A stretch of DNA of 64,000 nucleotides from a virus (lineage: Duplodnaviria; Caudoviricetes). This document shows, piece by piece, positions 12,103 through 52,148 of the stretch (position 1 is its first letter; each line of letters begins with the position of its first letter). The stretch spans positions 1 through 64,000 of the IMG/VR virus record IMGVR_UViG_3300032321_001270; one strand, 5' to 3'. The notes under the pieces are model-generated. The model was not told the DNA's origin and ran no database searches. It saw only the letters and a list, made by a program, of their open reading frames with translations. Made by a program: the position numbers and the translations under genes.

Positions 12103-13983
12103 TCAAGGCTTCCACCCGCTTGTTGTCCCGGTCACGCCAAACTGATCGCCCTGCGCTAATGCCGGGACATAACTACTGCCAGCCGCGTCGCTACTTAACC
12201 CGCGCTGGACGCTGTTCATAAGTCCCTTTTCCTGATATGAACCCAACATGCGGGTCATCCAGTCAGGGTCGTTCGAGATATTGGCCATACCACGAACCAT
12301 TTCGGGCTGGAACGGCGGCGGTTCTTTATGCGCCTGTACCGTTTTGATGCCGTACTTGTTTAAGTTTGTCAGCACGTTTTTACCGATCTTCGTGCCGATT
12401 GAATAGTGCAAAACCGGTTTTTCAAGATAATGCCCGGATAATGTCTGCGGCGCACCGGAGACGCTACCTTCGCGCGGGGTCCAGTTTCGTTCTAATGTTG
12501 AATACGGCACGATGTCGTCAGGGGCATAATCACCGTACTCGTCGGTCAGGCGTACGTGGTTTACAAGCCCGCGCGCCAACAGCTCAATATTACGGCGGTG
12601 AGCGGAAATACCGCTGTTGCCCATAACCTGCCGCATAGCGTGTACAAAGTAACGCCGCCCCTCGCCGACGCCTTTGTGTTTGACAATTTCCGACGGGTTA
12701 GGCATGCCGTCAGAGATCACATCGCCGGCTTCGAGTTCGTCGCCTTTTTTAACGGCCAGCTCGCGCTCGGTCGGAATGTAGTGATCTTGCCCGTTGATTT
12801 GCACATAGTGCCCGCCCTGCGCCGCCGGACGAACTTCCTGCACGCGACCGTCGGTCTGCGCGTGCGCTGCGCCGCCGGGATACTTCTTCGGCACCTGCAC
12901 AAGCGCGTTCAGGGCTTTAAACCCAGAGATCGCGCCTGCACCGCCGACACCGCCCGAGTGCTTTGAGCTAATCTGGCTTTGCGTAACAGGCTCGGAAAGA
13001 GCTTGTGCCGCCGCAATGCCTACATAGTCCCCGGCCGGCGGTAGCCGGCCTTTTTCGCGGTATCCGACGTCTTTTGCGTAAACACCGCCGTCGCCGGGAC
13101 CACCGACGATAGGGCTGCGCACTAAGATATCTTTAACGCCCATCTCTTTGATGTCGCGCAAGATCTTCGGTGTCAGTACGGTGTTACGCTTATACGGCCC
13201 GATAGCGCGAGACAGCAACGCGCCCTCATTGTCAGCGTCATCGACATCGCTCGGATAGCCGCGTTCTTCCGACTCAGCTTTTTGGGTCTCGTCGGTGTCG
13301 TCATCGTCGTCGGACGTGACAAGCAGGCGGTGCGTCATCTGCGCTAGCTGCTTGCCGTAAAAACCGGCGTCAGCGGTCGCAGTCTTCAAGTCAATCACAC
13401 CCTTGCGCGTGCCGAATGCTCCGGCAAAGTACTCAACGGGGCGAAGACCTTGGCTGTAGCCGCGCAACACCGGAATTGGTATCGGGTCGCCGCGGTGGTC
13501 AAGATACTGCATGTCCGCGCCGATAATCGAGTTCAGCTGAAACTTGTTGCCGACGCCAGCGCCCGCAATTTGATGCACCAGAGGATTATCTTGCCCCTCG
13601 GCTTCTTTGTAAACTTTGTCAAGCAGTTCTTGCTGCGCACCCTGCGCTAACTCAAGCAATTTTAAGTTTCGCTGTTTCTCGTCAAGCCGCTTGTCAGCGA
13701 GGATGTCTTGCATCTGCCGATGAACCCGCAGTTGAACATTGCGCACAGCCAGCGTTGGGCGAATGTCTTTCAGGCCAAACGACAAACCGTTTGTGGAATA
13801 CCCGGCATCGCGGCCAACGTCATGAAGTTTTTTCATAACTTCACGATATTTTTCAGGATGTCGTTTGGCTAGTTCTGTTGCGACACCGGACATACTCTTT
13901 TTGGTCAACACACGATCGTAGTCGCGCATGTCTGGAGGAAGCGCCTCGTTGATCATGAGTTGTCCAAGCGTCGTTTTAAGCAT
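12103..13983 (-). CDS. rpoC: Phage RNA polymerase beta' subunit, C-terminal half (bridge helix, trigger loop)
   Basis: TTLGQL start; GYSQGLRPVEYFAGAFGTRKGVIDLKTATADAG (bridge helix); GIAAAQALSEPVTQ (trigger helix); GDVISDG...RRNIELLARG; start re-called at MLKTT. Confidence 0.9.
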   Translation of the reverse strand: MLKTTLGQLMINEALPPDMRDYDRVLTKKSMSGVATELAKRHPEKYREVMKKLHDVGRDAGYSTNGLSFGLKDIRPTLAVRNVQLRVHRQMQDILADKRLDEKQRNLKLLELAQGAQQELLDKVYKEAEGQDNPLVHQIAGAGVGNKFQLNSIIGADMQYLDHRGDPIPIPVLRGYSQGLRPVEYFAGAFGTRKGVIDLKTATADAGFYGKQLAQMTHRLLVTSDDDDDTDETQKAESEERGYPSDVDDADNEGALLSRAIGPYKRNTVLTPKILRDIKEMGVKDILVRSPIVGGPGDGGVYAKDVGYREKGRLPPAGDYVGIAAAQALSEPVTQSQISSKHSGGVGGAGAISGFKALNALVQVPKKYPGGAAHAQTDGRVQEVRPAAQGGHYVQINGQDHYIPTERELAVKKGDELEAGDVISDGMPNPSEIVKHKGVGEGRRYFVHAMRQVMGNSGISAHRRNIELLARGLVNHVRLTDEYGDYAPDDIVPYSTLERNWTPREGSVSGAPQTLSGHYLEKPVLHYSIGTKIGKNVLTNLNKYGIKTVQAHKEPPPFQPEMVRGMANISNDPDWMTRMLGSYQEKGLMNSVQRGLSSDAAGSSYVPALAQGDQFGVTGTTSGWKP

Positions 13984-13984
13984 G

Positions 13985-14233
13985 TTATTTTGGCCACACG
14001 ATATTCTGCATCGACTTTGGAGCAAAATCCGACACTACGACAGTTTTCTCGATACCAAGCGCGCGCAACAGTGAATGAAAATCTTTTTCTCCGGGCGTTG
14101 AGTACACAATCGCTTCGTCGACTTGAATAGCAACAAAAATCGGGTTGCCAAGATCGTCTTCGATAACGACGCTGTGCGCTTTTCGCTCAGATGGTTGAAG
14201 ACTGTGTTGGGTTTTAACCAGCATTGCCCGCAA
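13985..14233 (-). CDS. Hypothetical protein between the RNAP genes
   Basis: 82-aa ORF tightly coupled to both neighbours. Confidence 0.5.
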   Translation of the reverse strand: MRAMLVKTQHSLQPSERKAHSVVIEDDLGNPIFVAIQVDEAIVYSTPGEKDFHSLLRALGIEKTVVVSDFAPKSMQNIVWPK

Positions 14234-14963: not shown

Positions 14964-17900
14964 TTAGGTATTATCTTCCACAATATGAACCGGGGTGTCT
15001 ACCTCGATTTCACCACGCCGGTATGCCTGCATTGCGTCTTGCTTGCTGCGATATACCCGCGGTTTGGACTTGTTATTAATCCGACTGGACGCCACATAGA
15101 GCCCAGTTTGATAGTCTTTGTTCGGTACGTAGTGCGCCCGGAACGTCGAGGTTGCAAACAGGTTTTTGCTCGGCAGCATCTTCTCGACGGCTTCCTTGGC
15201 CGCATCTTCTGTGCTGGGAACGTGATACTGCATCGCATCGCCGTCGAAGTCGGCGCCAAAGCCTTTCGTGATCACGGGGTTAACTTCCATGACCTTGTTC
15301 TTCGTCAGCTTTGGATAGAACGCCATCATGCCGTATCTATGTAAAACAGGCGCGCGATTAATAACAATCGGACGCGCACCCATCTGTCGATCCAGTTCTG
15401 CCGCGGCTTCTTTGTTCTTGTCCTCAACGGCTTGCATAGCTTGCATCCGGGGCAAGCCGCGGCGAACTAAACCACGCACAACAAACGGCTTGTAAATGTC
15501 CCACGCCTTCTCTTCCGGCAGGGCAACCTCGTCCATGTCCAGATCGGGGTTGGGGGTGATGACAGCCCGGCCGACAAGATCGACCGTGGAGCTAAGAAGC
15601 TTGCGCTGTACCGTGCCGTACTTGGGCGATGTACCAAACACGTGGCGCAGAAAACCCTTAACGTTGCGCTCGACGTTTTTTGGCTGTTGAGGGTCGCCCA
15701 AACCAGTCACGGCTTTTAACGAGTCATATACCCCAAGGCGCTCTTCGCTGTAATCGGTCAGCGCGCCGGACGCGTCTTTGAGGGCGCCGTTTGCGTCCAG
15801 CAGTTCTTTGTATAAGTAATTTGCATCAGCTACGAGCGGCAGCTTCTTGTTACCCATTGTGCTGACGGGCCGGAAAAGGGGCGGCAGCACTGGTACTTTG
15901 TTGATCATCCAGTCTTTGGGCTGCACGCCGGTTGCTTCAGCGCTCTTCAAAAAACCAAGCCGCCGCACAGCAGCATCACGCAGGGTTTTTCTGCCGGATT
16001 TGATATCTTCACGGGCCTGCTCGATTGCTTTGGGAAGGTTAATCCGCTCCAGAGCTTCTTTGATCGCGCTCGGGCCTGTCTTGTCACCCAGCGACTCTTG
16101 TCCGGCGAGAACGGCTCGGAAGCGTTTTTCCGTCAGGCCCAACACCCGGCGAATCGGATCTTCCATCACGGGATTTGGCATCGGTTCGTGAAGCGTGATC
16201 TTGCTCCACCGATTGCCGCTATGGCCGCCCGTTAATGTCTCATCGAACAGGCCGCCTGCGATTGGTTTGAGCCGGCCTTTCCAATCGACTGTTTCAGAAT
16301 TCTGGAGTTCACGGTTGCCGGCCAGCGCATCGACGTCCTTATCGGTCATCGCCATGATGTTGGACTTGGATCCGCTGCGCACGACGTTAATCCCAGACGC
16401 GCGCAACTGATTGACGAACTTCTCGTAGACGTGCGGGACTTTTGGCAGCGGCGGGGTATATCCAGCCATGAACTGCGACCAGTACTCTGGGTTAGCTTGG
16501 CCACGAACCATCTTGGCGTCGCGGATAACCTTGCCGGCGCCGTGGCTAAGCAACGCGCCAAGGTCAAGCATGCCGACACGCTTGGCACCTTCAGAGCCGC
16601 CCTTGGCCGGTGTGCCTTCGGCGGTATACGCGCCCATCGCCCGGCCTTGCGCCTTGGACTCACTCGTGTGGTGCAGCTTCATGAAGAAACGATTGCCGGT
16701 CAGAACGCCGGGGATCTTACGACCTGTCGTGGGGTCAATGATTTCTTCGGTGTCAGAAAGCCCGTGCTTGGCGAGTTCCTTCTGGGCCATCTCAATTAGG
16801 TCGGTATTGTTATCAAAATCTTTAAGCTTGAACGGTTTGCCTGTTTTTGCCGCAATTTTGCCTAGCGCAGCCTCAATAACCTGCGCCGGATTAATACGGC
16901 TGATCAAACCCAGCGGACTGACAAGTACTTCATATGGGTTGCCGTCTTTGTCATGCGGCATCTCTTCGTCTTTTACGATCTCAGATACAACGCCTTTATC
17001 GCCAAAGCGGCCGGTGAGTTTATCGCCCACGTCCATCTGCGCCTGATTTTTGACGACAACGCTGACGCCCTTCTTGGTGTGCATCACATCGGTCACGATA
17101 CCGGGCGAATGGTGGTCCCACGTCACAGTTTCATTCGTAAAACTACCCGCCCGACCACGATGCACTTTGCCGTAAACCGTGTCTTTCTTTTTGGCAACGA
17201 GCACCAGCGGGTCACCAAAGTGAACTTCTGTGCCTTTTTTAATCGCGCCGACGTCGTCAAAATTTTCAAGTTTCTTCTTGTCGTACTCCGCGGGAAATAA
17301 ACTCACGAACGCCTTCTTGCCAACGTGAGTATTATCATCCCATTCGGCTTCATGCTGGTACATGTGCTCAGACGTCAGGCGCTTGGCGGCAGACTCAGAG
17401 ATCACCACGGCGTCTTCGTAGTTCTTGCCGCGGAACGGCACATAGGCTGTGCGCAGGTTCAGCCCCAGAGCCGCGCTGCCGTTCGAGTCTGTAAAGTTTG
17501 AGCGGGCCAGCAGCTGTCCGGGTTCGACTACATCGCCGGGTTTGACCAGCGGCGTCTGATGCAAGAATGTTTTGCGGTTGTACGGCATCTCGTTGTACAG
17601 ATCGATCGTCTTCTTATTGCCGTCCTTGTCGCGCAGCACAATTCCGTCCGGCGTAACATCAACGACCTGCGAACGGTGGGTAGCACGGGTAGCACCCAGT
17701 TTTTCGCCCATCTCGTCTTCATGCGAAACGCTAGGGTCATCAGCTTTAGCCGACTGTACAAGCGGCGCTTCGGCGCCGACAAGGGGCAGGGCCTGTGTAA
17801 ACATTCGACTACCCATGATCACGCGGTGGCCTTTGATCATAGTTTTGATCGGCACCATGTTGGACAGCGTTGAGAACGTCGAGTCCATGTTCGGCAAGCT

Positions 17901-19379
17901 GAACTGCGCGTCTTTGCGCGGCACATACTTGAGACGGCCGTTGACGAGCGCGGCCACGACGGGAAGCTTGTTGTCTTCTTCGCCCGGGAACACAAGCGGC
18001 GTGTCAGCTAACTCTTGCGGGGTTTTGTACACGCGCTCACCGGTCTTCATGTCGACAACGGGCGTATAAACCTTGCCGTCCGCACCCTTCATGGCGCCGC
18101 GGGCAAACCGCATATCGACACCGACCTTGCCGCTTTCCGGCGTGCGCAAATAGTCGATAAATCCAAGATGGCTGGGCTGTACGCTACGCGACTCAGCCGG
18201 CACAGCGTCGAGCGAACCTATGCCGCCCTCGCCCATGCGAGTTACACGAGTCTGATGATCAAAAATCTCAGCTGGGTTGATTTCTTCTAAGCTCGACCCC
18301 AACCCGCTGCCGATCAACGCGGCCGAAATAGCTTTGTCAAACACACCGCTGGGAATATGGTCGATGGATTTTCGTGCCGTGGCTTTCCATAGCAACTTGT
18401 TTAATCCCTGCCGGTCTTTGGTGAAACGCTCGGCAATCAAGTCTTCGGGGCCGACCACCGACTGATACACCATGTTGTCGCGGTCATCGCTCTCGGCTTC
18501 GCGACGATTCACTGCGATTAATTTCTTAGTAATCGCCAGAATCGTGTCCGGCGTCATGTTCTTGTGCTCGGCGCCAAGCGTTCGGCGAGTGACTTCGGGG
18601 TCGAGTTCGGTCTTGGCAAACTCGTCGGCGATGGCTTTGGCTTTGACGAGTGCGTCAGCGCCGGCAACAGGTTTGTTTACAAGTCGCGCGTAAAGTTTGT
18701 CGAGCGTGCCGGCGTCGCCCTTTTCCATATTGACGGCGGTGATCTCGTTGCCCCACGACGCGCGAATGTCTTGATCCGACACGCCCATGCTCTTGAGCAA
18801 CGGCATGAGCGGGATCTGCGCCTGACCGATGCTAATTTTAAACACGCCGGTTTTTGGGTCGAGAAAGTAGCGATGTGAGCGGCCTTTGCCGGGCAATGTG
18901 TTAACGTGTGCTTCAATCTCGCCGTTGTCTTTCTCGCGGGTGAACACGCCCGGGCGTAACCGCATCTGGTGCGCGAGTGTGTATTCCACGCCGCCGTTGA
19001 CGAACGTGCCGGAGTCTGTGAGATACGGGACATGCGCAATAGTCGCGCGCTTCTGGCCGACCGATTCACCGGTTTTGTTATCAATAAGTGTCCACGTGCC
19101 CTGCAGTCTGCGGGCAAGCGTGCCGCGCGATAGCACAGCTTTCTTTTGATCAGCCCTTGTAAATCTCTCCGGGCCAGAGTATCCAACATCTTGCAACTGA
19201 ATCGTATAAAGATCGTTCTGTAGGGGTTTTAAACCCTGCGCGCTGGTCAGCGCCTGATTGAAAATATTGTCGCGCATTGCGTCTACATCGCCGAACGTGC
19301 GCATAGACGGCACAGGCTGCGGGCCGGGCTGAAAAACCGGCTGCGGCGCTTTCAAAGGCGGCAGGTCAGGCGTCGGCAT
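14964..19379 (-). CDS. rpoB: Phage RNA polymerase: complete beta fused to the N-terminal catalytic half of beta'
   Basis: Beta motifs VPYLTDSGTFVNG, RTPESGKVG, GKNYEDAVVIS, GDKLTGRFGDKGVV, MKLHH; then beta' motifs PVLPPLFRP, VDLVGRAVI, NRAPVLHR and GADFDGD; 1471 aa with no internal stop. Confidence 0.93.
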   Translation of the reverse strand: MPTPDLPPLKAPQPVFQPGPQPVPSMRTFGDVDAMRDNIFNQALTSAQGLKPLQNDLYTIQLQDVGYSGPERFTRADQKKAVLSRGTLARRLQGTWTLIDNKTGESVGQKRATIAHVPYLTDSGTFVNGGVEYTLAHQMRLRPGVFTREKDNGEIEAHVNTLPGKGRSHRYFLDPKTGVFKISIGQAQIPLMPLLKSMGVSDQDIRASWGNEITAVNMEKGDAGTLDKLYARLVNKPVAGADALVKAKAIADEFAKTELDPEVTRRTLGAEHKNMTPDTILAITKKLIAVNRREAESDDRDNMVYQSVVGPEDLIAERFTKDRQGLNKLLWKATARKSIDHIPSGVFDKAISAALIGSGLGSSLEEINPAEIFDHQTRVTRMGEGGIGSLDAVPAESRSVQPSHLGFIDYLRTPESGKVGVDMRFARGAMKGADGKVYTPVVDMKTGERVYKTPQELADTPLVFPGEEDNKLPVVAALVNGRLKYVPRKDAQFSLPNMDSTFSTLSNMVPIKTMIKGHRVIMGSRMFTQALPLVGAEAPLVQSAKADDPSVSHEDEMGEKLGATRATHRSQVVDVTPDGIVLRDKDGNKKTIDLYNEMPYNRKTFLHQTPLVKPGDVVEPGQLLARSNFTDSNGSAALGLNLRTAYVPFRGKNYEDAVVISESAAKRLTSEHMYQHEAEWDDNTHVGKKAFVSLFPAEYDKKKLENFDDVGAIKKGTEVHFGDPLVLVAKKKDTVYGKVHRGRAGSFTNETVTWDHHSPGIVTDVMHTKKGVSVVVKNQAQMDVGDKLTGRFGDKGVVSEIVKDEEMPHDKDGNPYEVLVSPLGLISRINPAQVIEAALGKIAAKTGKPFKLKDFDNNTDLIEMAQKELAKHGLSDTEEIIDPTTGRKIPGVLTGNRFFMKLHHTSESKAQGRAMGAYTAEGTPAKGGSEGAKRVGMLDLGALLSHGAGKVIRDAKMVRGQANPEYWSQFMAGYTPPLPKVPHVYEKFVNQLRASGINVVRSGSKSNIMAMTDKDVDALAGNRELQNSETVDWKGRLKPIAGGLFDETLTGGHSGNRWSKITLHEPMPNPVMEDPIRRVLGLTEKRFRAVLAGQESLGDKTGPSAIKEALERINLPKAIEQAREDIKSGRKTLRDAAVRRLGFLKSAEATGVQPKDWMINKVPVLPPLFRPVSTMGNKKLPLVADANYLYKELLDANGALKDASGALTDYSEERLGVYDSLKAVTGLGDPQQPKNVERNVKGFLRHVFGTSPKYGTVQRKLLSSTVDLVGRAVITPNPDLDMDEVALPEEKAWDIYKPFVVRGLVRRGLPRMQAMQAVEDKNKEAAAELDRQMGARPIVINRAPVLHRYGMMAFYPKLTKNKVMEVNPVITKGFGADFDGDAMQYHVPSTEDAAKEAVEKMLPSKNLFATSTFRAHYVPNKDYQTGLYVASSRINNKSKPRVYRSKQDAMQAYRRGEIEVDTPVHIVEDNT

Positions 19380-26847: not shown

Positions 26848-27114
26848 TTAGTGAATGAGCGACAGTACAAAACGTAAAAACAGTGAGAACCACGCAAGGC
26901 AGCCGCTGATAGCGAAAAAAACGATGACACTGCTCGCACCGACAACGCGGCCAAGCTGCTGGATTTGAATGTTTTTGAGCAGATTCCACGCCTTGAGGTA
27001 GTCAATGGCGCCCGGTTTCTTGGCCGGAACTGGTTCAGGCGCAGGCGCGGGCGTATCGGGCGTTTTTTTGCCGCCCAGTAATTCGCGCAGTTTATCGAGG
27101 AACGGAGTGGACAT
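26848..27114 (-). CDS. Small membrane protein
   Basis: Start re-called at MSTPFL; hydrophobic C-terminal half. Confidence 0.45.
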   Translation of the reverse strand: MSTPFLDKLRELLGGKKTPDTPAPAPEPVPAKKPGAIDYLKAWNLLKNIQIQQLGRVVGASSVIVFFAISGCLAWFSLFLRFVLSLIH

Positions 27115-35619: not shown

Positions 35620-37845
35620 TTACATCTGCGGACCGGACGGCATGCCCGGCGCCTGATCGTAGTAAAACGGGTTGCGCACATTGGGCACGTACGACCGTGC
35701 CGTTTGCGCTGCGTTGTTCACGCCGCGGCGAACATTGTTTGCGGTGTTAACAACGCTGTTTCGGGCTGTGCCGTATGCGGTACCGGCGGCATCGCCGATT
35801 GCTGAGCCAGCGGTATTGAACGCGCTACCAATCAAATTTCCGGCTGAACTCGCAGCGTTTCCGGCTGAACTTGCGGCGTTGCCAACGGCGTTGCCAGCGG
35901 ACGATATGGCGTTGGTCACGCCCTGCACACCAGCGCCAATGTCGTTTGCGGCTTGATTGTAAATATTACGACCAAACTCTTGCGCGTGATTCACATATGG
36001 CTGCGCAGGCGACGAGTTTCCAAGGCCATATGCGCCAGCCCCGGCTAACATCGTGGCGCCAAGCGGACTCTTGTTTGCGACATACCGCGCACCCGTGCCG
36101 GCCCCGCGGGCCACGGTACCGGCCCCCTGCATACCGTAGCCGAGCGCAGCTTGTGCGCCGCCGGCCATCGTCTTGGCAGCGCCCATGCGTCCGCCCTGCT
36201 GCAGGCCGCTGCGGGCCATGTTTACGCCGCCCTGCGCGAGCGTGTTTCCGCCGCTTGTCATAGCGCCGCCGACCATTTGCGCACCCCGACCGACACCAGA
36301 CACGCCTTTCTGCGCCGCGGCTCCAACCGCGCGGCCTGCGCCGGAAGCCATGCGACCCACCCCGCGAGCAAGTGCCCCAAGCGGTACGGCTACTTTTTCA
36401 TGCGGCTGCTGGTTGTTCTTTGCGTCAGTCGGCACCGGGCTGTTTGTTTCGCGTTGCTTGTCGTCGATCATCTTTTTGCTACCACGCGATGACGGCTCTA
36501 GCGTCATCTGTGTTTTACCGCGAGCAGCACTCGACACAGCTTTCTTCTCTTTCTTGTCTTTCTTCTTCTTGCTACGAGCTGGCCGGCACGAGTCTTCGCT
36601 GTACGGCTTCTTGCCCGGCACCGGTTCGTAACCAGCCCAGCACCGCGCAAACTTCTCGCCAAACTCGCGCGCAGAACCCTGCTTGACGCCATTCGTGCTG
36701 CTGGCCTGTAACTGCGGCATCAGCTGCTCGATGATATTGCGGTTGTGCGTCAGGAAGTCATACGTTTGCCGGCCCTGTTCGCTGCTCATGTTGGGATCGC
36801 GGCCCATGAGCATCGTGGTGCCGAACTCTGGACTTAACTTGCCCAGCGCGTTGATCTGATCCATGGGGTTATTGCTGTTTCCGCCGCCAAGCATGCTGTA
36901 CAGGCCGTTGGCGCCCTGTCCAACCAATCGCCGCGGGCCGTCGCCGAACATACCGGCTCCTGCAGCGCCTAAACCAGCCGCACCCAGACCAAGCGCACCC
37001 ATCGCGCCACCCAGTCCGGCATTGCCGCGGCCGCCCATGTATGCGCCAGCCAAGGCCAGCGGAACACCGGCGCCAATCGCGTAGCGCGCTTCGATCGGCA
37101 GGCTATTCCACATGCCCATCAAGCCGCCGCCGTGCCCAGCTTCAGCGTGCTGGCCCTGCATAAGCTGCGTGTTCAATTGTTGGTTATTGATATTTGCCGT
37201 CGACGGCTCAGCGGCGTCATTGCCGCCCAGACCTAAAGCCTGACCGCCGTAATGCAAACCGGCAGCGCCGGCGCCAGCGCCAACTGCAAGGTTCAGCGGA
37301 TTGCGCGCATTCGTCATCGCCGACGTGCCGCCACCCAGATAGTCAGGAATGTTTTTGGCCATCGCTTGCGTGCGGCCCAGCGTCTGATCGCCGAAACGTT
37401 GTCCGGCGGCGCGCGCATCACGACCCATGGCATACTGCGCCAGATCGTCAGCTTTGTTTAGGCCGCGGCGCGCTGTATTCATGACGCCCTGACCGAGACC
37501 GCCGACAGCGTCCAACGCACCACCAGCTAACTGACCCGGCGTGCCGTGATACAACGACGCGGCCTGTCCACGGACTGCACGGCCCGCCGCTTCCATACGA
37601 CTAGGTGCCGCGGGCTTGGCCGCCAGCGGCACGGCTTTGTAGCGATCTTTCAGCGGAATGGTCAGCGGATCTACAACATTTTTTTGCATACCGCGCGAAA
37701 AACCACGTGTCGCCGCTGTGCCTTTTGCTGCCGCTCGCTGCGCTGTGCGCCTGACGGCATCAACGCCCTTGTTCACGTACTGGCCGACGTTAATTGCGTC
37801 TTTTTCCATTGCACCAGTAAGTTGACCAAATTCATAAGGCGTCAT
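35620..37845 (-). CDS. Large Gly/Ala-rich virion-associated protein with MTPYEFG leader and a CWxGY module
   Basis: MTPYEFGQLTGAMEKDA start; internal SAREFGEKFARCWAGYEPVPGKKPYSEDSCRP; several GxxxG hydrophobic stretches. Confidence 0.6.
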   Translation of the reverse strand: MTPYEFGQLTGAMEKDAINVGQYVNKGVDAVRRTAQRAAAKGTAATRGFSRGMQKNVVDPLTIPLKDRYKAVPLAAKPAAPSRMEAAGRAVRGQAASLYHGTPGQLAGGALDAVGGLGQGVMNTARRGLNKADDLAQYAMGRDARAAGQRFGDQTLGRTQAMAKNIPDYLGGGTSAMTNARNPLNLAVGAGAGAAGLHYGGQALGLGGNDAAEPSTANINNQQLNTQLMQGQHAEAGHGGGLMGMWNSLPIEARYAIGAGVPLALAGAYMGGRGNAGLGGAMGALGLGAAGLGAAGAGMFGDGPRRLVGQGANGLYSMLGGGNSNNPMDQINALGKLSPEFGTTMLMGRDPNMSSEQGRQTYDFLTHNRNIIEQLMPQLQASSTNGVKQGSAREFGEKFARCWAGYEPVPGKKPYSEDSCRPARSKKKKDKKEKKAVSSAARGKTQMTLEPSSRGSKKMIDDKQRETNSPVPTDAKNNQQPHEKVAVPLGALARGVGRMASGAGRAVGAAAQKGVSGVGRGAQMVGGAMTSGGNTLAQGGVNMARSGLQQGGRMGAAKTMAGGAQAALGYGMQGAGTVARGAGTGARYVANKSPLGATMLAGAGAYGLGNSSPAQPYVNHAQEFGRNIYNQAANDIGAGVQGVTNAISSAGNAVGNAASSAGNAASSAGNLIGSAFNTAGSAIGDAAGTAYGTARNSVVNTANNVRRGVNNAAQTARSYVPNVRNPFYYDQAPGMPSGPQM

Positions 37846-37995
37846 GGGTTTGTTCCTGTGTTGCTTCTGGTTTTGATATTTTTTCGGGGTACGTGCAGCG
37901 GCCGCCTTCGCAGCAGGTTTCAAGGATGATGCGGCAAAACGGACACACCAGTTTGCCGCGGATCTCAATCGCCGGGCTTTCGCACAACGGGCACA

Positions 37996-40324: not shown

Positions 40325-40443
40325 GGCATAACTTTCGTGCTGCCGCAGTGATACGGCGGGTCATACGGGCAGTTCTGGCATTTGCGACCACAACACATTT
40401 GCTGCGCTAGTAAAAACTCCCGGGACAGAGGCTGCGGGCTCAT
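40195..40443 (-). CDS. Small Cys-rich protein (DUF5522-like)
   Basis: CCGRKCQNCPY motif; the C-terminal part overlaps the HNH gene. Confidence 0.45.
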   Translation of the reverse strand: MSPQPLSREFLLAQQMCCGRKCQNCPYDPPYHCGSTKVMPCVPFFLPAGTPSNASCPSGCDPGTSSICGHAQAHGDGCGLNT

Positions 40444-40793
40444 AGCACGGTCGAAGCGTGCGTGAATTTTTTTTCGTAGTGGGCGTAAATGTCAGCGTAG
40501 GCCACACCCCACGCGGCATCATGCGCGAGCTTGTTGAACGCCTCGTCGTCCGCGGCGTTATCCAGCCGGTGGTTCCACGCCCGCGCATGCGCCCACTCGT
40601 GGATTAAAACATCCATGGAACGCGACTCGTCCAGACTCTTGTCGATCTGGATGTGGAACTTCTTGCCCTGTTTCCAGCAGCGGCCCTCTAACTTGGAGAG
40701 CTTGACGCGGCGAACGCTCACGGGAAACGCCGCGGGGCACTCTTTTTTGAGCATCCGCAGGAGGGCGTTGTAATACTTAAATCGAGCCGCCAT
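40440..40793 (-). CDS. Small HExxH zinc metallopeptidase-like protein
   Basis: VLIHEWAHA...HD..WG; start re-called at MAARFK (GGAGG RBS). Confidence 0.6.
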   Translation of the reverse strand: MAARFKYYNALLRMLKKECPAAFPVSVRRVKLSKLEGRCWKQGKKFHIQIDKSLDESRSMDVLIHEWAHARAWNHRLDNAADDEAFNKLAHDAAWGVAYADIYAHYEKKFTHASTVL

Positions 40794-40880
40794 GCTCCGT
40801 CCTCCTGAAGGGCGTCCTTGCCGCAACAGGCTGATTATACAGGGCCGGAGTTACGTTTGTCGCATCAGGTTTTTAGCTTG

Positions 40881-42718: not shown

Positions 42719-44881
42719 TTAGCGGTCGGGAGCGGCGGCATCAGCAGGCTCGTCGTCAAGAATACTGGGCGATTTCTTGGGCGTCGCTGTTGGGTATTTT
42801 AACAGCTTGCGGCGTTTCTTTGGAAGCGGCCGATTTGCGGCATCTGTTATTAACTTAAGCGACTTGAAAACCGCGCTTTCTTTCTCTTGGGTTTCAGGCT
42901 CGGGCTGCTGGCGTTTGAGATACTTCTGTAACTCCTGCTCCTGATATGCCTGCAGCATCGTTTTGATATCATCTTTTTTGGCTGGCGATACTAACTTGGC
43001 CGGATCAATGGCCCAGTGCTGCAGCGCCCAACCCCGGCGTGGCGACGGGCTCTTCATAAACGGCCCGCCATGGCGTGCTTTGAAGCTCGCCCAGCGCTTA
43101 ATCTGCCGGGTGTCTTCGTCTGGAATCCTGCGGCCGGAGTTATAGTTCTGATACCACTCCAGCCAGCCCTTGGGATCATGCTCGGTGACCCACTCTGGCT
43201 TCCACTCGCCCAAGCTGGCTAAGCGCGGGCCCTCTTGTTCATAGAGTGACTTGTACACACCCATGCGATGCAATTGGCCGGGTGTAAAATCTGGTTGAAA
43301 GTCCGGCAGCTCGGCGCTGGTCTTTACGCCGTGCTCGTCTTGGTAGCGCGTGCCTTCGTCGCGCAAGATCCGGCGAAACTCCTCGTTGAACTGTTCTTTC
43401 TCGTCGGCCAAGTGCGCCAGTACTTCGTCGCCGGTGCGCTCGCGCTTGTAGCCCAAGAATTTCCCAAGCATGCTGGGATCTTCCGAGGCGCTAAGATATC
43501 TTTGCACGAGCACGTTCTTGAGTTCTTCGGGCAAACCGACGTGCGAGTCAAAGCGCAGACCACGACCACGAGCTTGCTGGCTGCGCGATTCATGCCAGTG
43601 CGGGTCTAAGAGCTGAATAAGACTGGTGCCCTTCGTGGACAAGCCTTCAGCGCCAGCCGGGCCAATGAGCAACGCGCGTAACTTCCCGGCGTTGTATGCG
43701 TCGACCGCTTGCTGGCGAGCTTTGGGAGAAACACCGCCATGAAAGAACCCATAGGGAATCTTGGCTTTCTCTAGGCCGGCTGCGTACGGCGACAAGCCAG
43801 AGTCCACGAAGTTGGAATAGATAATCGCCTTCTTGCGTTTGTCACTCTTGAGCGTGTCCTGCAGGTTTTTGAACGCCGTCTGTAATTTTGCGCTTTGCTG
43901 GAACGCCTTGGCCGGATCTTTGTCGGCGCGAAACGGCTGCGTGGACAGACTTACTTGGCGCAGCCCCGACATGAAGCTGTTTAACTTGGCGAGTTCTTCC
44001 TTGGACAGCGGAAACTCTTGGTCCAGTTTCCATAAGAACCCCGGCGGAATCTTCGTGCGAATCGCTTTCTGGATCTTCTGCTGTTCGCTGCTCAGGGGCA
44101 CGCGCACGACTTGCTCGTTGACGTTCACGCCATCAGGAGTCTTGCTGGGCTGATAATCCACTTTGCCGCGTAACAAGCTGCGCAGTTCAGCTTCGTTCTT
44201 CACCACTGGTTTAACGCCGGGCTTCGCACCCCGCAGCCAACCAAACAGCCCCGGCCGCACGGTCTTCTGACCGACGTAGCGCTTCTCGAATTCTTCCGGT
44301 GTGATCTCTTTGTTATTGAGCATGGACAACAAGTTCGCCAAGTCACTGGGCGAATTGGTGACCGGCGAACCCGTTAATAACAAGAGGCGCTTGGCGTTGG
44401 CGGCGGCTTCGGCAGCACTGTATGAACTGGCGCTGTTGGGATTACGAAGCCTGTGCGCCTCGTCCATGATCAGTGTGTCGGGCTGCTGTTGAAACTTCTT
44501 GCCCAAGGCCAGCCCCGTGTAACTCATGATCTCGGGATTGGAGTTGCGCGTAAACTTGCCGATTTCTTTCTCGAAATTACCCCGCAAGCTAGCTGGAACC
44601 ACGATACCGTAGTCTTCGCCGGTCTCTTCCTTGGCTTTCTCGGCCGCGGCAATGCTAGAGAGCGACTTCCCTGACCCCAAACCGTGATAGACGAGCATGC
44701 GGGGATCGCCACTAGTCAGCCGGTCGGCAATGCGCTGCTGATGTTCCTGCAGCTGGATATTTGGGTCCAGCTCGGCCTGTTTGTCGGCCAAAATGCTCGG
44801 ACTGGCTGACTTATCGGCCCATGTTCGCACGGCGGCCACAAGATCGACCGGTAGCTGCGCCGTTTTGTTATTTGTATCCAT
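42719..44881 (-). CDS. SF2 (SNF2/NPH-I-like) helicase fused to a C-terminal DPKGWLEWY domain
   Basis: HGLGSGKS (I), MDEAH (II), LTGSP (III), GAEGLS (V), QARGRGLR (VI); C-terminal DPKGWLEWY...GRRIPDEDTRQIKRW. Confidence 0.85.
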   Translation of the reverse strand: MDTNNKTAQLPVDLVAAVRTWADKSASPSILADKQAELDPNIQLQEHQQRIADRLTSGDPRMLVYHGLGSGKSLSSIAAAEKAKEETGEDYGIVVPASLRGNFEKEIGKFTRNSNPEIMSYTGLALGKKFQQQPDTLIMDEAHRLRNPNSASSYSAAEAAANAKRLLLLTGSPVTNSPSDLANLLSMLNNKEITPEEFEKRYVGQKTVRPGLFGWLRGAKPGVKPVVKNEAELRSLLRGKVDYQPSKTPDGVNVNEQVVRVPLSSEQQKIQKAIRTKIPPGFLWKLDQEFPLSKEELAKLNSFMSGLRQVSLSTQPFRADKDPAKAFQQSAKLQTAFKNLQDTLKSDKRKKAIIYSNFVDSGLSPYAAGLEKAKIPYGFFHGGVSPKARQQAVDAYNAGKLRALLIGPAGAEGLSTKGTSLIQLLDPHWHESRSQQARGRGLRFDSHVGLPEELKNVLVQRYLSASEDPSMLGKFLGYKRERTGDEVLAHLADEKEQFNEEFRRILRDEGTRYQDEHGVKTSAELPDFQPDFTPGQLHRMGVYKSLYEQEGPRLASLGEWKPEWVTEHDPKGWLEWYQNYNSGRRIPDEDTRQIKRWASFKARHGGPFMKSPSPRRGWALQHWAIDPAKLVSPAKKDDIKTMLQAYQEQELQKYLKRQQPEPETQEKESAVFKSLKLITDAANRPLPKKRRKLLKYPTATPKKSPSILDDEPADAAAPDR

Positions 44882-45752
44882 CCGGCGTCCCTGTCGGTTC
44901 GGCGCGTTGGCTGGCGATAGGATCAGAGCCCGTCGTGGCTTGTGCGGCCAGTGCCAGCTCGTATTGCTTGATCTGCGATTCTACCCAATTCACATACAAA
45001 CTAATACGGGTGAACCCAGACTCGTCGCCGTATGTGCCGTCAGGTTTTTTGTCTTTGGCCATGAGAAACGAGTTAATTCCCGCTAACTTATTGCCAATAA
45101 ACATGCCGCCGCCAGAGTCGCCGGGGGCAATCATAAACTCTAGTGGAAATCGCCCAACGCCGCTGGTGGGAGAGCACACCAGCACGCCGCGCTCTTGGCC
45201 GTCGATCTTATTGTGCCCGGCGCGGCGATGGCCGTCAGACGATGTGCAGCCCGTGTGAAACGTGCCGTGCAGGCCGTAGCCGGAGAACGTAATTGCTTTG
45301 CCCAGCTCGTCGGAATCTCGGTACAGCTCGGGGTAAAACTCGGCCTTGAAGTCTTCCGGCGAATAACCCAGCGCCAGATCATAAAAGCCAAAGTTATCGT
45401 CTTGAAAGTCTTTGTGCGCGATCACGGTCTGGAGCGGAAACGGCTTGTCTCGGCCTTCGCGCAAGATGGCGGGCTCGGTGGTGTCTTTGACCACGTGGGC
45501 TGCGGTCAAAATCCAGTGCGGGCGAATGATCACCGCTGAGCCGTACTGGGGATGTTCTTTTAATTTGCATTCAGGCTTGTCGCACGTGGTATTGGCCCGG
45601 ATGCGCACCACGTTGGGAAACTGCTTGCCAAACTCGACGTATTTTTCATCTGGGGTGTTTGGATCGATCGTTCCCGCGGTCGCAAAGCGCGTGGATACAA
45701 TCACAACGATCACAAAGCGAAGCAGGCGGGCTAGAAATTCTTGCACATCCAT
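44868..45752 (-). CDS. Exported trypsin-like (S1) serine protease
   Basis: WILTAAH, YDLALG, GDSGGG; N-terminal signal/TM. Confidence 0.85.
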   Translation of the reverse strand: MDVQEFLARLLRFVIVVIVSTRFATAGTIDPNTPDEKYVEFGKQFPNVVRIRANTTCDKPECKLKEHPQYGSAVIIRPHWILTAAHVVKDTTEPAILREGRDKPFPLQTVIAHKDFQDDNFGFYDLALGYSPEDFKAEFYPELYRDSDELGKAITFSGYGLHGTFHTGCTSSDGHRRAGHNKIDGQERGVLVCSPTSGVGRFPLEFMIAPGDSGGGMFIGNKLAGINSFLMAKDKKPDGTYGDESGFTRISLYVNWVESQIKQYELALAAQATTGSDPIASQRAEPTGTPDGYK

Positions 45753-50654: not shown

Positions 50655-52148
50655 TCAGCGCTGGGCCGCCGGAACGATGCCCTGCAGCTGGCCCCACGTT
50701 CTGGCGTCGGTTGTCGGGCCGCCCCACGCAGTCAGATTTGTGCGAATCTTGTCGCCGGTGATCGTGTTGCTCATGTTTCGGCGCCCCATGCCGGCCATAA
50801 CGCGCTCGAACCTAGCACTTGCGTCAGCCAATGCCTGCTGGGCTTGTTGCGTATCGCCAAAGCGCGGAAAACCACCGGGAGCAGCGCCGGGCATACGCAT
50901 CCGTGCCGTAGGCGCTTGTGCCGGGCGCTTGTTTGCGCGCATGAGATAATTATGCACGTTTTCCATGATGTCTGGGTGGCGCATTAAGCTCTCACCGCGG
51001 GCTGCAGCGAGCGGGCCAGCCACAGACGGATGCACGTTGGCGATGTTTAACTTGGGGGCTACAGCCTTGGCCGCCGTATTAGCTACGGCCTTTGCGCCAC
51101 CACCAAATAACCGACCAAGGCCGCCAAAGTTGAGCCCGGCTTCTTTGCCAAACTCATACGCGCTGGAGCACTTGCAGTTCCATTTGCGCAGGGATTTATT
51201 AATGCGCGAGTCTGGGTCTTTCTTTGTATCGGCGCCAGTGTTTACGCGTTTCATGCCACACATCCGGGAGCAAAAAGAGTTCTGGCGCTTGGCCCGATCG
51301 CCTTTAGGATTGCTCTCGGTGACGGGTGCTTTCAGGTGGCCGCCCGTGGCTTTGTTATAGCTGGCGCGCCCCTTGGCGTTGAGGCCGCCTTCGTCATTCT
51401 TGCCGGCAGATCGTTGCCACGCAGGTGTGCCGGCCAGCTTTTCGCCGCCTGCTGAGTTCGCTGTACCAAGGGCGGCATTGCCATTGATATCACCCGTCGT
51501 GGACAGCCCGCCAAAGGCATTGATCGGGTTGGCGTTAGCCGAGTTTCCACCGCCTACAGGTGGCAGTTGACCCTCGGCGCCGGTGGGAGCAGGGGTAGCC
51601 GGGCTGGCGGCCTGCTGGGGCGCCTGTGGAGCTTGTGACTGCATCCCCATGGGCAGGGGCGTACCCATCGCGGGCATGGCGTATCGCTTAATTCCGGCGT
51701 TTGCAGGCACCATGGCGGCATCGCGGGCCTCCTGTTCAGCCTTTTCGTTCTCTAAAGCCTGCTGGATGGATTGCGATAACACTGCAGAAAGCTTCGCCAT
51801 CAAGCTGTTTACGCCGGTTTTGGGCATATTTCCACACCCACACGAATCCTGCTTGGTTTTCTTTACTTCTGTCTGTTCTTGGCCCGCATACGTTGGCTTT
51901 TCCCCCTGCGGCATAGCGACTCGGACCTCTGTAACCCCACTTTTCTTCAAGAACTTGGCGTAAATATCGAGGGCGACGGAGTTTACAGCAGATTGTTTAT
52001 TGTTTGTTTCCACAGGTTCGTCCTTTTTATTCTTATGCGCATACAGGGGGAGCTTTTTCTGGTTTGGATACTCATGCGCCCAGCGTTTCGCAATATCTGG
52101 ATGCTCGGCCCAGAGAAATCTGCGCTGCTTTTCTGACTTGAATGGCAT
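50655..52148 (-). CDS. Modular virion-associated protein (MPFKS N-terminal module, DUF6321-like module, K-x-A motifs)
   Basis: MPFKSEKQRRFLWAEHPDIAKRW; EKLA then AWQRSAGKNDEGGLNAKGRASY...SFCSRM...SRINKSLRKWNC; SAYEFGKEAG. Confidence 0.6.
   Translation of the reverse strand: MPFKSEKQRRFLWAEHPDIAKRWAHEYPNQKKLPLYAHKNKKDEPVETNNKQSAVNSVALDIYAKFLKKSGVTEVRVAMPQGEKPTYAGQEQTEVKKTKQDSCGCGNMPKTGVNSLMAKLSAVLSQSIQQALENEKAEQEARDAAMVPANAGIKRYAMPAMGTPLPMGMQSQAPQAPQQAASPATPAPTGAEGQLPPVGGGNSANANPINAFGGLSTTGDINGNAALGTANSAGGEKLAGTPAWQRSAGKNDEGGLNAKGRASYNKATGGHLKAPVTESNPKGDRAKRQNSFCSRMCGMKRVNTGADTKKDPDSRINKSLRKWNCKCSSAYEFGKEAGLNFGGLGRLFGGGAKAVANTAAKAVAPKLNIANVHPSVAGPLAAARGESLMRHPDIMENVHNYLMRANKRPAQAPTARMRMPGAAPGGFPRFGDTQQAQQALADASARFERVMAGMGRRNMSNTITGDKIRTNLTAWGGPTTDARTWGQLQGIVPAAQR

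What the first reader, a model, noticed from the sequence alone, without database searches (positions are those of the whole stretch)
42719..44881. Poxvirus NPH-I/VETF-like helicase fused, through a K-x-A-like linker, to a giant-virus-type domain
Seen: LVYHGLGSGKS, LLLTGSPVTNSPSDLANLL and GAEGLS...LLDPHWHESRSQQARGRGLRFDSH. From memory these match vaccinia D6 (LLLSGSPITNTP) and D11 (EGIS...LDMTWNE..LRQIVGRAIRLNSH) better than typical phage helicases. After GVKTSAE comes a domain (FTP...DPKGWLEWY...GRRIPDEDTRQIKRW) that I recall from uncharacterised giant-virus proteins. Established: D6 and D11 are virion-packaged transcription ATPases. Inference: with the RNAP and novel promoters, this suggests a virion-borne, poxvirus-like early transcription kit in a bacteriophage.
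Basis: partly seen in the sequence, partly recalled or inferred. Interest (0 to 1): 0.75.

Follow-up and report, generated by a model that had tools for sequence, protein, structure and literature searches.

The report
Phage SNF2 ATPase with RNAP-linked domain
A 205-kb uncultured phage encodes an ordinary SNF2-type DNA motor, not a poxvirus-derived one, joined by conserved junction motifs to an undescribed domain that in complete phage genomes occurs only alongside a phage RNA polymerase, so it is probably part of a virion-carried early-transcription kit.

Summary
ORF 42719-44881(-) is a 720-aa intact SNF2-family ATPase followed by a separate, conserved ~130-aa domain ("X"), with K-x(-x)-A motifs at the junctions.

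The poxvirus reading fails. SsoRad54-like, Rad26 and ISWI proteins and phage family phrog_62 (1.9e-44) match better than vaccinia NPH-I or VETF-s, which align only over shared SNF2 motif blocks.

The functional inference gets real support:
- The closest cultured homolog, Salmonella phage Arash Gp217, lies next to the RNAP beta' gene. Published virion mass spectrometry found it as abundant as beta'.
- X is absent from Pfam and PHROGs and has no solved-fold match.
- X sits N- or C-terminal to the helicase. In other phages it is fused to split RNAP beta/beta' pieces, NUDIX, P-loop kinases and 3'-phosphoesterases.
- All 15 X-bearing viral records that are at least 90% complete encode a multisubunit RNAP.

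Caveats: phage PA-SR01 has the helicase but no RNAP, Arash lacks X, and nothing was tested at the bench. I found no giant-virus link for X. It has a large cellular sister family.

First readers of this scan noted the same helicase plus Trp-rich domain in at least four other genomes. Verdict: a new variant of a known kind, of moderate interest.

The parts
42719..44881 (-). Whole ORF, 720 aa (P0001): leader, SNF2 ATPase, domain X, basic tail
44774..44881 (-). N-terminal leader, aa 1-36. It carries three K-x-A motifs (KTA 6-8, KSA 24-26, KQA 34-36) and an SPSIL motif (27-31), and ends right before the conserved helicase start ELDPNIQLQEHQ
   Evidence: K-x(1,2)-A lies 4-5 aa before the core in 100/101 relatives
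43313..44773 (-). SNF2-family ATPase/translocase core, aa 37-523
   Evidence: Pfam SNF2-rel_dom and Helicase_C; phrog_62 1.9e-44; 1z63 SsoRad54-like aligned over aa 67-506; 32.7% identical to Arash Gp217 over aa 38-510
44663..44683 (-). Walker A / motif I, GLGSGKS (aa 67-73)
   Evidence: sequence; invariant in 30 relatives
44453..44464 (-). Motif II, DEAH (aa 140-143)
   Evidence: sequence; D140, E141 and A142 invariant
43553..43579 (-). Motif VI, QQARGRGLR (aa 435-443), with arginine fingers
   Evidence: sequence; invariant; this is the region that aligns to vaccinia NPH-I
42872..43312 (-). Domain X module, aa 524-670 (conserved core ~528-656). All-helical and Trp/Arg-rich, bounded by KTSA(520-523) and KESA(667-670)
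   Evidence: no Pfam, PHROG or PDB match
42722..42871 (-). Basic C-terminal tail, aa 671-720 (RPLPKKRRKLLKYP ... SPSILDD)
   Evidence: conserved in same-architecture relatives
44868..45752 (-). Trypsin-like serine protease (294 aa) with H84/D125/S213 motifs. Its stop overlaps the helicase start, and it is a neighbour in 42/55 related loci
40440..40826 (-). SprT-like zincin metallopeptidase (128 aa, HEWAH), a neighbour in 46/55 related loci
   Evidence: Pfam score is below the gathering cut-off
50655..52148 (-). DUF6321-containing protein (497 aa). It is conserved upstream in 41/55 loci, and DUF6321 is fused to X or to the helicase in other phages
14964..19379 (-). RNAP beta fused to beta'-N (1471 aa). 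Its aa ~20-270 and ~1100-1466 are the pieces found fused to X in other phages
12103..14025 (-). RNAP beta'-C (640 aa), homolog of Arash Gp216, which directly precedes the Arash helicase gene

Best explanation
The gene encodes a modular precursor. It consists of a short leader, a catalytically intact SNF2-family double-stranded-DNA translocase (aa ~37-523), an undescribed ~130-aa helical Trp/Arg-rich domain X (aa ~524-670) and a basic tail. The modules are joined by conserved K-x(-x)-A junctions that are probably cut by a phage protease.

It belongs to a conserved block of likely internal or ejected virion proteins: DUF6321 protein, trypsin-like protease, helicase, SprT-like peptidase and Gly-rich proteins. 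I infer that it is packaged in the capsid together with the phage's two-chain multisubunit RNA polymerase and enters the cell with the DNA. There the ATPase would travel on the incoming genome to help the phage polymerase, for example by clearing roadblocks or by releasing and recycling stalled polymerase. Bacterial RapA and vaccinia NPH-I do this by analogy.

Domain X is an accessory module of the phage-RNAP gene set. It is either a tether to the polymerase or to nucleic acid, or an independent co-packaged factor.

Shown: the family, the intact motifs, the domain architecture, the junction-motif enrichment, the X-RNAP fusions and the X-RNAP co-occurrence. Inferred: packaging, cleavage, and action on transcription.
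For: - SNF2 identity and intact motifs I, II, III and VI.
- The closest cultured homolog, Arash Gp217 (32.7% identity over aa 38-510), starts at the stop of RNAP beta' gene gp216 and precedes MS-identified structural proteins.
- Virion LC-MS found Gp217 at 100% coverage with 38 unique peptides and 1148 spectra. Beta' Gp216 gave 40 and 1210, and beta Gp206 gave 128 and 3516 (PMC10585845).
- This phage shares Arash's RNAP layout and the flanking structural genes gp218-like and gp222-like.
- Domain X occurs once in this genome.
- Among the 146 best of 792 X-bearing cluster representatives, about 30 are RNAP beta-N + X, and 4 are NUDIX + X + beta'-N. One beta-N + X gene is followed directly by the next beta piece.
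- Other fusion partners are LigD_N 3'-phosphoesterase (12 of 63), NUDIX (11), P-loop kinases (AAA_33 8, AAA_18 7), PAP2 (5), pyrophosphatase (3) and 2H phosphoesterases (3).
- RNAP beta is present in 22/29 X-bearing viral records and in 15/15 of those at least 90% complete, across three different beta gene layouts.
- Junction motif enrichment is 82-83% against 20% background at the X edges and 100/101 before the helicase core.
- An active-looking S1 protease and an HExxH peptidase are conserved neighbours.
- Iyer et al. 2021 (PMC7824862, section 3.4.3) proposed a RapA-like role for a different RNAP-linked Swi2/Snf2 helicase of phiKZ-type jumbo phages.
Against: - No experiment bears on this phage, so packaging is inferred from a 33%-identical homolog.
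- The Arash preparation yielded 116 'virion' proteins including ribonucleotide reductases, so carry-over of abundant proteins is possible, as the authors themselves say.
- Pseudanabaena phage PA-SR01 has an equally close helicase homolog inside its head-gene module but no detectable RNAP beta. The helicase lineage is therefore not strictly RNAP-dependent.
- Arash has the RNAP and the helicase but no X.
- In this phage and 55 relatives no RNAP gene lies within 10 kb of the helicase; here it is about 23 kb away.
- If the K-x-A junctions are cleaved, the fusions show co-expression or co-packaging and not physical docking.
- K-x-A before the helicase core may simply be conserved helicase sequence.
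- Cluster representatives are related, so the enrichment statistics are not independent counts.
- There is no RapA-specific or NPH-I-specific domain.
Confidence: 0.5

Rival explanations
1. It is an injected anti-defence or DNA-protection effector of the polyvalent-protein kind, like phage P1 DarB. On this reading the virion-delivered SNF2 translocase runs along the entering DNA to displace or block restriction and other host nucleoprotein complexes, or helps pull the genome in, independently of the phage RNA polymerase.
For: - phrog_62 and phrog_11801 hits fall inside very long multidomain profiles of 1881 and 2269 positions, the latter annotated as a methyltransferase.
- Relatives fuse extra P-loop kinase, NUDIX and DUF6321 modules, in proteins of up to 2184 aa.
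- A zincin-like peptidase and a second protease are conserved neighbours. This matches the processing theme of Iyer et al. 2017 (PMC5512222), who also describe SWI2/SNF2 modules in virion-delivered polyvalent proteins such as DarB.
- PA-SR01 keeps the helicase in its head module without any RNAP.
Against: - No adenine methyltransferase partner is present in the protein, and none shows among the conserved neighbours; the methylase-helicase dyad defines the DarB group.
- Domain X is tied to RNAP subunits and RNAP-bearing genomes.
- In Arash the gene abuts RNAP beta' and has matching virion abundance.
Confidence: 0.25
2. It is an intracellular replication, recombination or repair helicase, such as an annealing or branch-migrating SNF2/UvsW-like enzyme. 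It would be made during infection and not packaged, and its detection in Arash virions would be carry-over.
For: - Database annotations call relatives 'DNA helicase'.
- Iyer et al. 2021 suggest that Snf2/Swi2 helicases of some jumbo myoviruses stand in for UvsW.
- The Arash 'virion' list contains obvious non-structural enzymes.
- The best full-length solved match is the DNA-repair-type SsoRad54-like enzyme.
Against: - The gene sits in a conserved block with proteases, Gly-rich tape-measure-like proteins and DUF6321 proteins, not among replication genes.
- In Arash and PA-SR01 it sits inside structural or head modules.
- Gp217 spectral counts equal those of RNAP beta' and approach the major capsid protein (1148 against 1333), which is high for carry-over.
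- The junction motifs and X-RNAP fusions remain unexplained on this reading.
Confidence: 0.12
3. One reading: it is a specific relative (ortholog or transferred gene) of the poxvirus/NCLDV NPH-I (D11) or VETF small subunit (D6), fused to a giant-virus domain.
For: NPH-I and VETF-s do appear among PDB sequence hits (8e-4 and 1.1e-3 with the single sequence; 5.9e-7 and 1.3e-4 with the profile), because they belong to the wider SNF2-like group. A virus-encoded multisubunit RNAP is present.
Against: - They rank below SsoRad54-like, Rad26, Rad5 and ISWI, and align only over motif blocks (aa 400-460 and 110-197).
- phrog_62 matches far better, at 1.9e-44.
- No poxvirus-specific Pfam family is hit at E<=1.
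- X was found in phage contigs and in at least 568 bacterial or archaeal loci, with no giant-virus hit seen.
Confidence: 0.03

Closest known systems
Salmonella phage Arash Gp217 'DNA helicase' (WGL32668.1), with RNAP Gp206/Gp216
   Same: It is the closest cultured homolog of the ATPase core (32.7% identity over aa 38-510). Arash has the same two-chain RNAP layout, beta fused to beta'-N plus a separate beta'-C, and shares the flanking structural genes. Gp217 was detected in virions at the level of RNAP beta'.
   Different: Gp217 is only 472 aa. It has no domain X, no leader-and-tail arrangement, and X is absent from the whole Arash genome. The Arash helicase gene abuts beta', whereas here the RNAP is about 23 kb away.
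SsoRad54-like SWI2/SNF2 ATPase of Sulfolobus solfataricus (PDB 1Z63) and phage family phrog_62
   Same: 1z63 is the best full-length solved-structure match (2.9e-8 single sequence, 6.5e-11 profile, aligned over aa 67-506). phrog_62 matches at 1.9e-44. It shares the canonical SNF2 motifs and the long spacer between motifs III and IV.
   Different: These proteins have no X domain, no K-x-A junctions, and no known link to a virus RNAP or to virions.
Bacterial RapA/HepA and the RNAP-linked Swi2/Snf2 helicase of phiKZ-type jumbo phages (Iyer et al. 2021, PMC7824862)
   Same: The concept is the same: an SNF2-type ATPase that accompanies a multisubunit RNAP and is proposed to recycle or release it.
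   Different: No RapA-specific domains and no RapA chain appear among the sequence hits. The phiKZ-group helicase is described as Rad25-related and is a different family. No Pseudomonas (phiKZ-type) phage appears among the ten named host genera of the 97 phage records matched.
Vaccinia NPH-I (D11) and VETF small subunit (D6)
   Same: They are SNF2-like ATPases packaged in the virion with a virus-encoded multisubunit RNAP for early transcription, which makes them the functional analogy. The motif II-III and V-VI blocks align.
   Different: They are not the nearest relatives by sequence. Only motif blocks align, and no NPH-I C-terminal or other pox-specific region is detected. The likeness is convergent or at family level.
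Polyvalent proteins and P1 DarB (Iyer et al. 2017, PMC5512222)
   Same: They are modular, variably fused phage proteins containing SWI2/SNF2 modules, are associated with zincin-like peptidases, and are delivered through the virion. Relatives here reach 2184 aa with many enzymatic modules.
   Different: There is no adenine methylase dyad. The network here centres on a multisubunit RNAP and RNA- or nucleotide-end enzymes. X matches none of the Pfam families, which include the polyvalent-protein domains.

Membership tests
SNF2 / SWI2 family ATPases (SF2) | Pfam SNF2-rel_dom and Helicase_C above their gathering scores | tested here: met
   45.5 bits against 24.9 and 46.9 bits against 23.5. The SNF2-rel_dom match covers only aa 134-203.
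SNF2 / SWI2 family ATPases (SF2) | Intact ATPase motifs: Walker A GxGKS, DEAH, TG(S/T)P, motif VI Q..R..R | tested here: met
   GLGSGKS 67-73, DEAH 140-143, TGSP 170-173 and QQARGRGLR 435-443 are present and invariant in 30 relatives.
SNF2 / SWI2 family ATPases (SF2) | Long, mainly helical insertion between motifs III and IV | tested here: inconclusive
   About 170 residues separate motif III from the Helicase_C start at 337, and DSSP on the model shows helices at 265-346. That part of the full-length model has pLDDT below 50.
Poxvirus NPH-I (D11) / VETF-s (D6) | Closer in sequence to these proteins than to other SNF2 subfamilies | tested here: not met
   NPH-I scores 8e-4 or 5.9e-7 and VETF-s 1.1e-3 or 1.3e-4, against 1z63 at 2.9e-8 or 6.5e-11 and Rad26 at 4.7e-10.
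Poxvirus NPH-I (D11) / VETF-s (D6) | Alignment beyond the shared helicase motifs, such as the NPH-I C-terminal RNAP-docking region | tested here: not met
   Only aa 400-460 align to NPH-I and aa 110-197 (profile 46-188) to VETF-s. No pox-specific Pfam family is hit at E<=1.
Poxvirus NPH-I (D11) / VETF-s (D6) | Packaged in virions with the viral RNAP | not testable with these tools
   The only evidence is by homology: Arash Gp217 in virion LC-MS.
RapA / HepA | RapA-specific N-terminal and C-terminal domains, and sequence likeness to RapA | tested here: not met
   No RapA Pfam family at E<=1 and no RapA chain among PDB sequence hits at E<=10.
RapA / HepA | Binds RNAP and stimulates its recycling | not testable with these tools
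Polyvalent proteins / DarB-like methylase-helicase dyad | SWI2/SNF2 module coupled to an N6-adenine methyltransferase | tested here: not met
   No methylase domain in P0001, and none shows among the conserved neighbours.
Polyvalent proteins / DarB-like methylase-helicase dyad | Variable multi-domain fusions together with an associated zincin-like processing peptidase | tested here: inconclusive
   Relatives carry kinase, NUDIX and DUF6321 fusions. A neighbouring HEWAH peptidase is conserved in 46/55 loci, but its SprT-like Pfam score (21.5) is below the cut-off (25.6) and it is not the MPTase-PolyVal family.
'Giant-virus-type' domain (claim for X) | Homologs in nucleocytoplasmic large DNA viruses | tested here: inconclusive
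   There are 792 cluster representatives without taxonomy. Viral hits are contigs of at most 212 kb, and at least 568 loci are bacterial or archaeal. The best BFVD hits are weak and unnamed (E 0.03 and 0.08), and atlas clusters are bacterial or Uroviricota.

The most novel reading that the evidence does not exclude
Domain X is an undescribed, very widespread small protein family: standalone ~165-aa proteins in bacteria, CPR lineages and archaea. A large group of uncultured phages has recruited it as a shared accessory module of a virion-packaged multisubunit-RNAP 'early expression kit'. In that kit the polymerase subunits, an SNF2 translocase, NUDIX, polynucleotide-kinase-like, 3'-phosphoesterase and 2H enzymes are made as K-x-A-delimited polyproteins, cut by a dedicated protease, and injected together. 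This would be a convergent bacteriophage counterpart of the poxvirus core transcription and RNA-processing machinery.
Probability: 0.3. Interest if true: 0.75.

Novelty: new variant of a known kind. Interest (0 to 1): 0.55.

Why it matters
Phage-encoded multisubunit RNA polymerases are known mainly from phiKZ-type jumbo phages, where accessory factors are poorly defined. Here a different and very abundant environmental clade of roughly 200-kb phages pairs a fused-and-split polymerase with a conserved SNF2 motor. An undescribed domain links the helicase, the polymerase subunits and RNA-end-processing enzymes by gene fusion.

If the kit is packaged and injected, it would show how these phages start transcription independently of the host. 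It would give X (and through it a large uncharacterised cellular family) a first functional handle. It would also define a new sequence-specific processing motif, K-x(-x)-A, for phage polyproteins. The poxvirus likeness would then be a clean case of convergence between bacterial and eukaryotic large DNA viruses.

Tried and rejected
- **Pfam, PHROGs and NCBIfam on the C-terminal region and on cellular homologs of X:** no family found.
- **Relation of X to the neighbour's DUF6321:** none (BLASTP E 0.49).
- **Full-length AF2 with 30 relatives:** mean pLDDT 54, with RecA lobe 2 and the X region poorly modelled. It was not used for fold search or domain docking.
- **X in Arash and PA-SR01:** none found.
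- **RNAP in PA-SR01:** none found.
- **PA-SR01 paper:** it has no virion mass spectrometry.
- **Megablast of the region against deposited phages:** no match.
- **SILD terminal motif as a DNA-level repeat:** rejected, because the codons differ. It is not enriched genome-wide either, with 5 found against 3.6 expected.
- **Cellular gene contexts of the X sister family:** no consistent theme, and one look-up found nothing.
- **Sigma70_r2 in the genome:** not found.
- **Vibrio phages pVa-21 and BONAISHI:** their X-like ORFs were uninformative.
Full report
**The object.** ORF 42719..44881 on the minus strand encodes a 720-aa protein, P0001. The window is the first 64 kb of a 205,188-bp IMG/VR phage record that CheckV rates 100% complete. 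Nearly all genes are on the minus strand.

**The ATPase.** Pfam gives SNF2-rel_dom and Helicase_C above their cut-offs, with weaker ResIII and SWI2_SNF2 hits. PHROGs gives phrog_62 'DNA helicase' at 1.9e-44. Motifs I (GLGSGKS), II (DEAH), III (TGSP) and VI (QQARGRGLR) are intact and invariant in 30 relatives. NCBIfam offers no specific family; DpdE, DrmD and others are all far below their cut-offs.

**Is it poxvirus-like?**
- Against all PDB chain sequences, the single protein hits Rad26/CSB-type (4.7e-10) and SsoRad54-like 1z63 (2.9e-8, aligned over aa 67-506).
- Next come Rad54, Rad5 and ISWI. Only after these come vaccinia NPH-I (8e-4, aa 400-460) and VETF-s (1.1e-3, aa 110-197).
- A family profile keeps the order: 1z63 6.5e-11, Rad5 1.1e-7, ISWI 1.9e-7, NPH-I 5.9e-7, VETF-s 1.3e-4.
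- RapA does not appear.

**Closest cultured relatives and the virion question.** tblastn against 50,697 phage records finds Salmonella phage Arash (32.7% identity, aa 38-510) and Pseudanabaena phage PA-SR01 (32.5%), then weak Gordonia phage helicases.

In Arash the gene (gp217) starts at the stop of gp216 (RNAP beta') and is followed by MS-identified structural proteins and the major capsid protein. The Arash paper (PMC10585845) reports these virion LC-MS values:

| Protein | Unique peptides | Spectra |
|---|---|---|
| RNAP beta Gp206 (the most-detected protein) | 128 | 3516 |
| RNAP beta' Gp216 | 40 | 1210 |
| Helicase Gp217 (100% coverage) | 38 | 1148 |
| Sigma Gp10 | 24 | 467 |

The authors caution that abundant enzymes may be carried over, since 116 proteins were detected.

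This phage shares Arash's RNAP layout. The 1471-aa beta + beta'-N protein lies at 14964..19379 and the 640-aa beta'-C protein at 12103..14025. It also shares the adjacent gp218-like and gp222-like structural genes. It has a single RNAP set.

PA-SR01 keeps the helicase in its head module but has no RNAP beta, and no virion MS exists for it.

**The C-terminal domain X.**
- *No known family or fold.* Residues ~528-656 have no Pfam or PHROG match even at E<=10. They are unrelated to the neighbour's DUF6321.
- *Position relative to the helicase.* A region search found 219 proteins, all with SNF2 + Helicase_C. BLAST mapping shows X C-terminal in close relatives and N-terminal to the helicase in many others, still 60-68% identical. 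It is therefore a mobile module that stays with this helicase.
- *Spread.* An exhaustive profile search finds 792 cluster representatives (118 at E<=1e-30) of 78-2184 aa, with X at any position. Only 16 of the best 146 carry the helicase.
- *Other partners.* Pfam on 63 non-helicase carriers gives LigD_N 3'-phosphoesterase (12), NUDIX (11), AAA_33 (8) and AAA_18 (7) P-loop kinases, DUF6321 (6), PAP2 (5), inorganic pyrophosphatase (3), 2H phosphoesterases (3), GNAT, Acb1 and RNA_pol_Rpb1_2 (2).

**X and the RNA polymerase.**
- *Fusions to RNAP pieces.* BLAST of this genome's ORFs against the 146 representatives shows 34 that match the RNAP protein. About 30 match its aa ~20-270, the beta lobe region (weak Rpb2_2 hit), followed by X. 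Four have NUDIX + X + beta'-N.
- *Split points.* In one locus the beta-N + X gene is directly followed by the next beta piece. In another, NUDIX-X-beta'N lies near an Rpb2_6 gene and a LigD_N gene.
- *Copy number.* X occurs once in this genome.
- *Co-occurrence.* Of 29 long viral records carrying X, 22 encode RNAP beta, including 15 of 15 that are at least 90% complete. The seven without it are 38-68% complete fragments. The beta open frames fall into three classes of ~640-700, ~1000 and ~1460-1490 aa, so the link spans different RNAP gene layouts.
- *Direction of the dependency.* Arash has RNAP and helicase but no X. X therefore implies a phage RNAP, not the reverse.

**Junction motifs.**
- K-x(1,2)-A lies within 20 aa upstream of the X core in 90/110 representatives and within 25 aa downstream in 85/103. 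Background windows carry it in 20% of cases.
- It also lies 4-5 aa before the conserved IQLQEHQ start of the helicase core in 100/101 family members, usually followed by EL or DL, against 15% background.
- In P0001 the sites are KQA34-36|ELDP, KTSA520-523|ELPDF and KESA667-670|VFKSL.
- These counts are not independent events, and the pre-helicase site may be inherited sequence. Even so, the recurrence at both edges of X across unrelated architectures argues for a functional boundary, most simply a protease site.

**Neighbourhood.** In 55 same-clade loci the conserved order is DUF6321 protein (41), trypsin-like protease (42), helicase (55), SprT-like HEWAH peptidase (46), then the 782-aa Gly-rich protein (37). 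No RNAP lies within 10 kb. The trypsin-like protein has His, Asp and Ser motifs, and its stop overlaps the helicase start. This resembles the peptidase-associated polyvalent-protein theme of Iyer et al. 2017. Iyer et al. 2021 proposed a RapA-like role for a different RNAP-linked Swi2/Snf2 helicase in phiKZ-type phages.

**Wider distribution of X.**
- More distant homologs occur in at least 568 loci of bacterial and archaeal genomes. These include CPR groups, Alpha- and Gammaproteobacteria and Pseudoalteromonas denitrificans DSM 6059, often on megabase-scale contigs.
- They are standalone proteins of about 165 aa with no Pfam family and no consistent gene context.
- Among deposited phages only weak standalone matches exist, in Vibrio pVa-21, pVp-JHP1101 and BONAISHI, Cobetia Carin-5 and Flavobacterium immuto.
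- I saw no giant-virus hit, but my tools could not search NCLDV proteomes by name, so that recollection stays unverified.

**Reading.** The most economical account is a modular precursor of a virion-delivered SNF2 translocase plus the X module, belonging to the phage's RNAP-centred early kit. The identity, architecture, junction-motif enrichment and X-RNAP linkage are shown. The packaging, cleavage and transcription role are inferred. The main rival is a DarB-like injected anti-defence motor independent of RNAP, favoured by PA-SR01. An ordinary intracellular repair helicase is less likely given the gene context, and specific poxvirus ancestry is effectively excluded.

**Earlier scan notes.** First readers flagged the same helicase + Trp-rich domain + K-x-A pattern in at least four other genomes. 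A follow-up on this genome's RNAP also named Arash gp206, gp216 and gp217. I reached Arash independently and tested the junction-motif idea myself.

Noticed in passing
window 42722-42871 and 44774-44881 (P0001 aa 27-31 and 704-708); relatives P0003-P0040: A short peptide motif (S/N)-S-I-L-D sits at both ends of this helicase family. It occurs in the first 40 aa of 28/121 members and the last 40 aa of 41/121, and several proteins end exactly in ...SILD. The ~720-aa interior averages only 0.19 occurrences. The codons differ between the two copies in P0001, so it is a peptide signal and not a DNA repeat. Its function is unknown; it may be a docking or targeting motif.
   Followed up: partly
L167 4953-5456 (Pseudoalteromonas denitrificans), L146, L147, L154, L156, L181 and at least 568 other genome loci: Domain X has a highly conserved standalone cellular sister family of about 165 aa (...DPRGWFQWYCRYYxGRRxPEEDxRQIKRW...RQRQALLHWAYDSR) in bacteria, CPR lineages and archaea. 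It has no Pfam entry. In Pseudoalteromonas its start overlaps the stop of a 2-thiouracil desulfurase/DUF1722 gene.
   Followed up: partly
window 27092-28534 (-), aa ~290-370 of the 2H-SAK protein: The DUF5661-like middle part of this 'Swiss Army Knife' 2H phosphoesterase protein recurs next to domain X in 17 of the 146 X-bearing cluster representatives. It appears to be another small shuffled module of the same network.
   Followed up: no
window 35620-37968 (-), aa 435-486 of the 782-aa Gly-rich protein: A short stretch, up to 86% identical over 21 aa, is shared with six X-bearing proteins. In the DUF6321-containing ones it lies about 20 aa upstream of their DUF6321 domain. It may be a linker or a recognition element.
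   Followed up: no
window 42719-42759 and 44868-44881: The helicase gene overlaps both neighbours on the same strand. The trypsin-like gene's end overlaps its start by 14 nt, and its own end overlaps the start of the 303-aa Gly-rich ORF by 41 nt. This suggests translational coupling in one operon.
   Followed up: no
Arash does annotate one (Gp10). I did not resolve this.
   Followed up: partly
L225 7001-7450 (Vibrio phage pVa-21, KY499642.1 46886-47335): The X-like match falls mostly in an unannotated gap between pVa21_055 and pVa21_056. It is probably a missed small gene in a nucleotide-metabolism region.
   Followed up: no
P0222 (2011 aa), P0212 (1464 aa), metagenomic proteins: These are very large polyvalent-type proteins carrying X. 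P0222 has PAP2 + three NUDIX stretches + DUF4269 + P-loop kinase + X. P0212 has RNAP beta-N + inorganic pyrophosphatase + X + 2H/Acb1-like phosphoesterase.
   Followed up: partly
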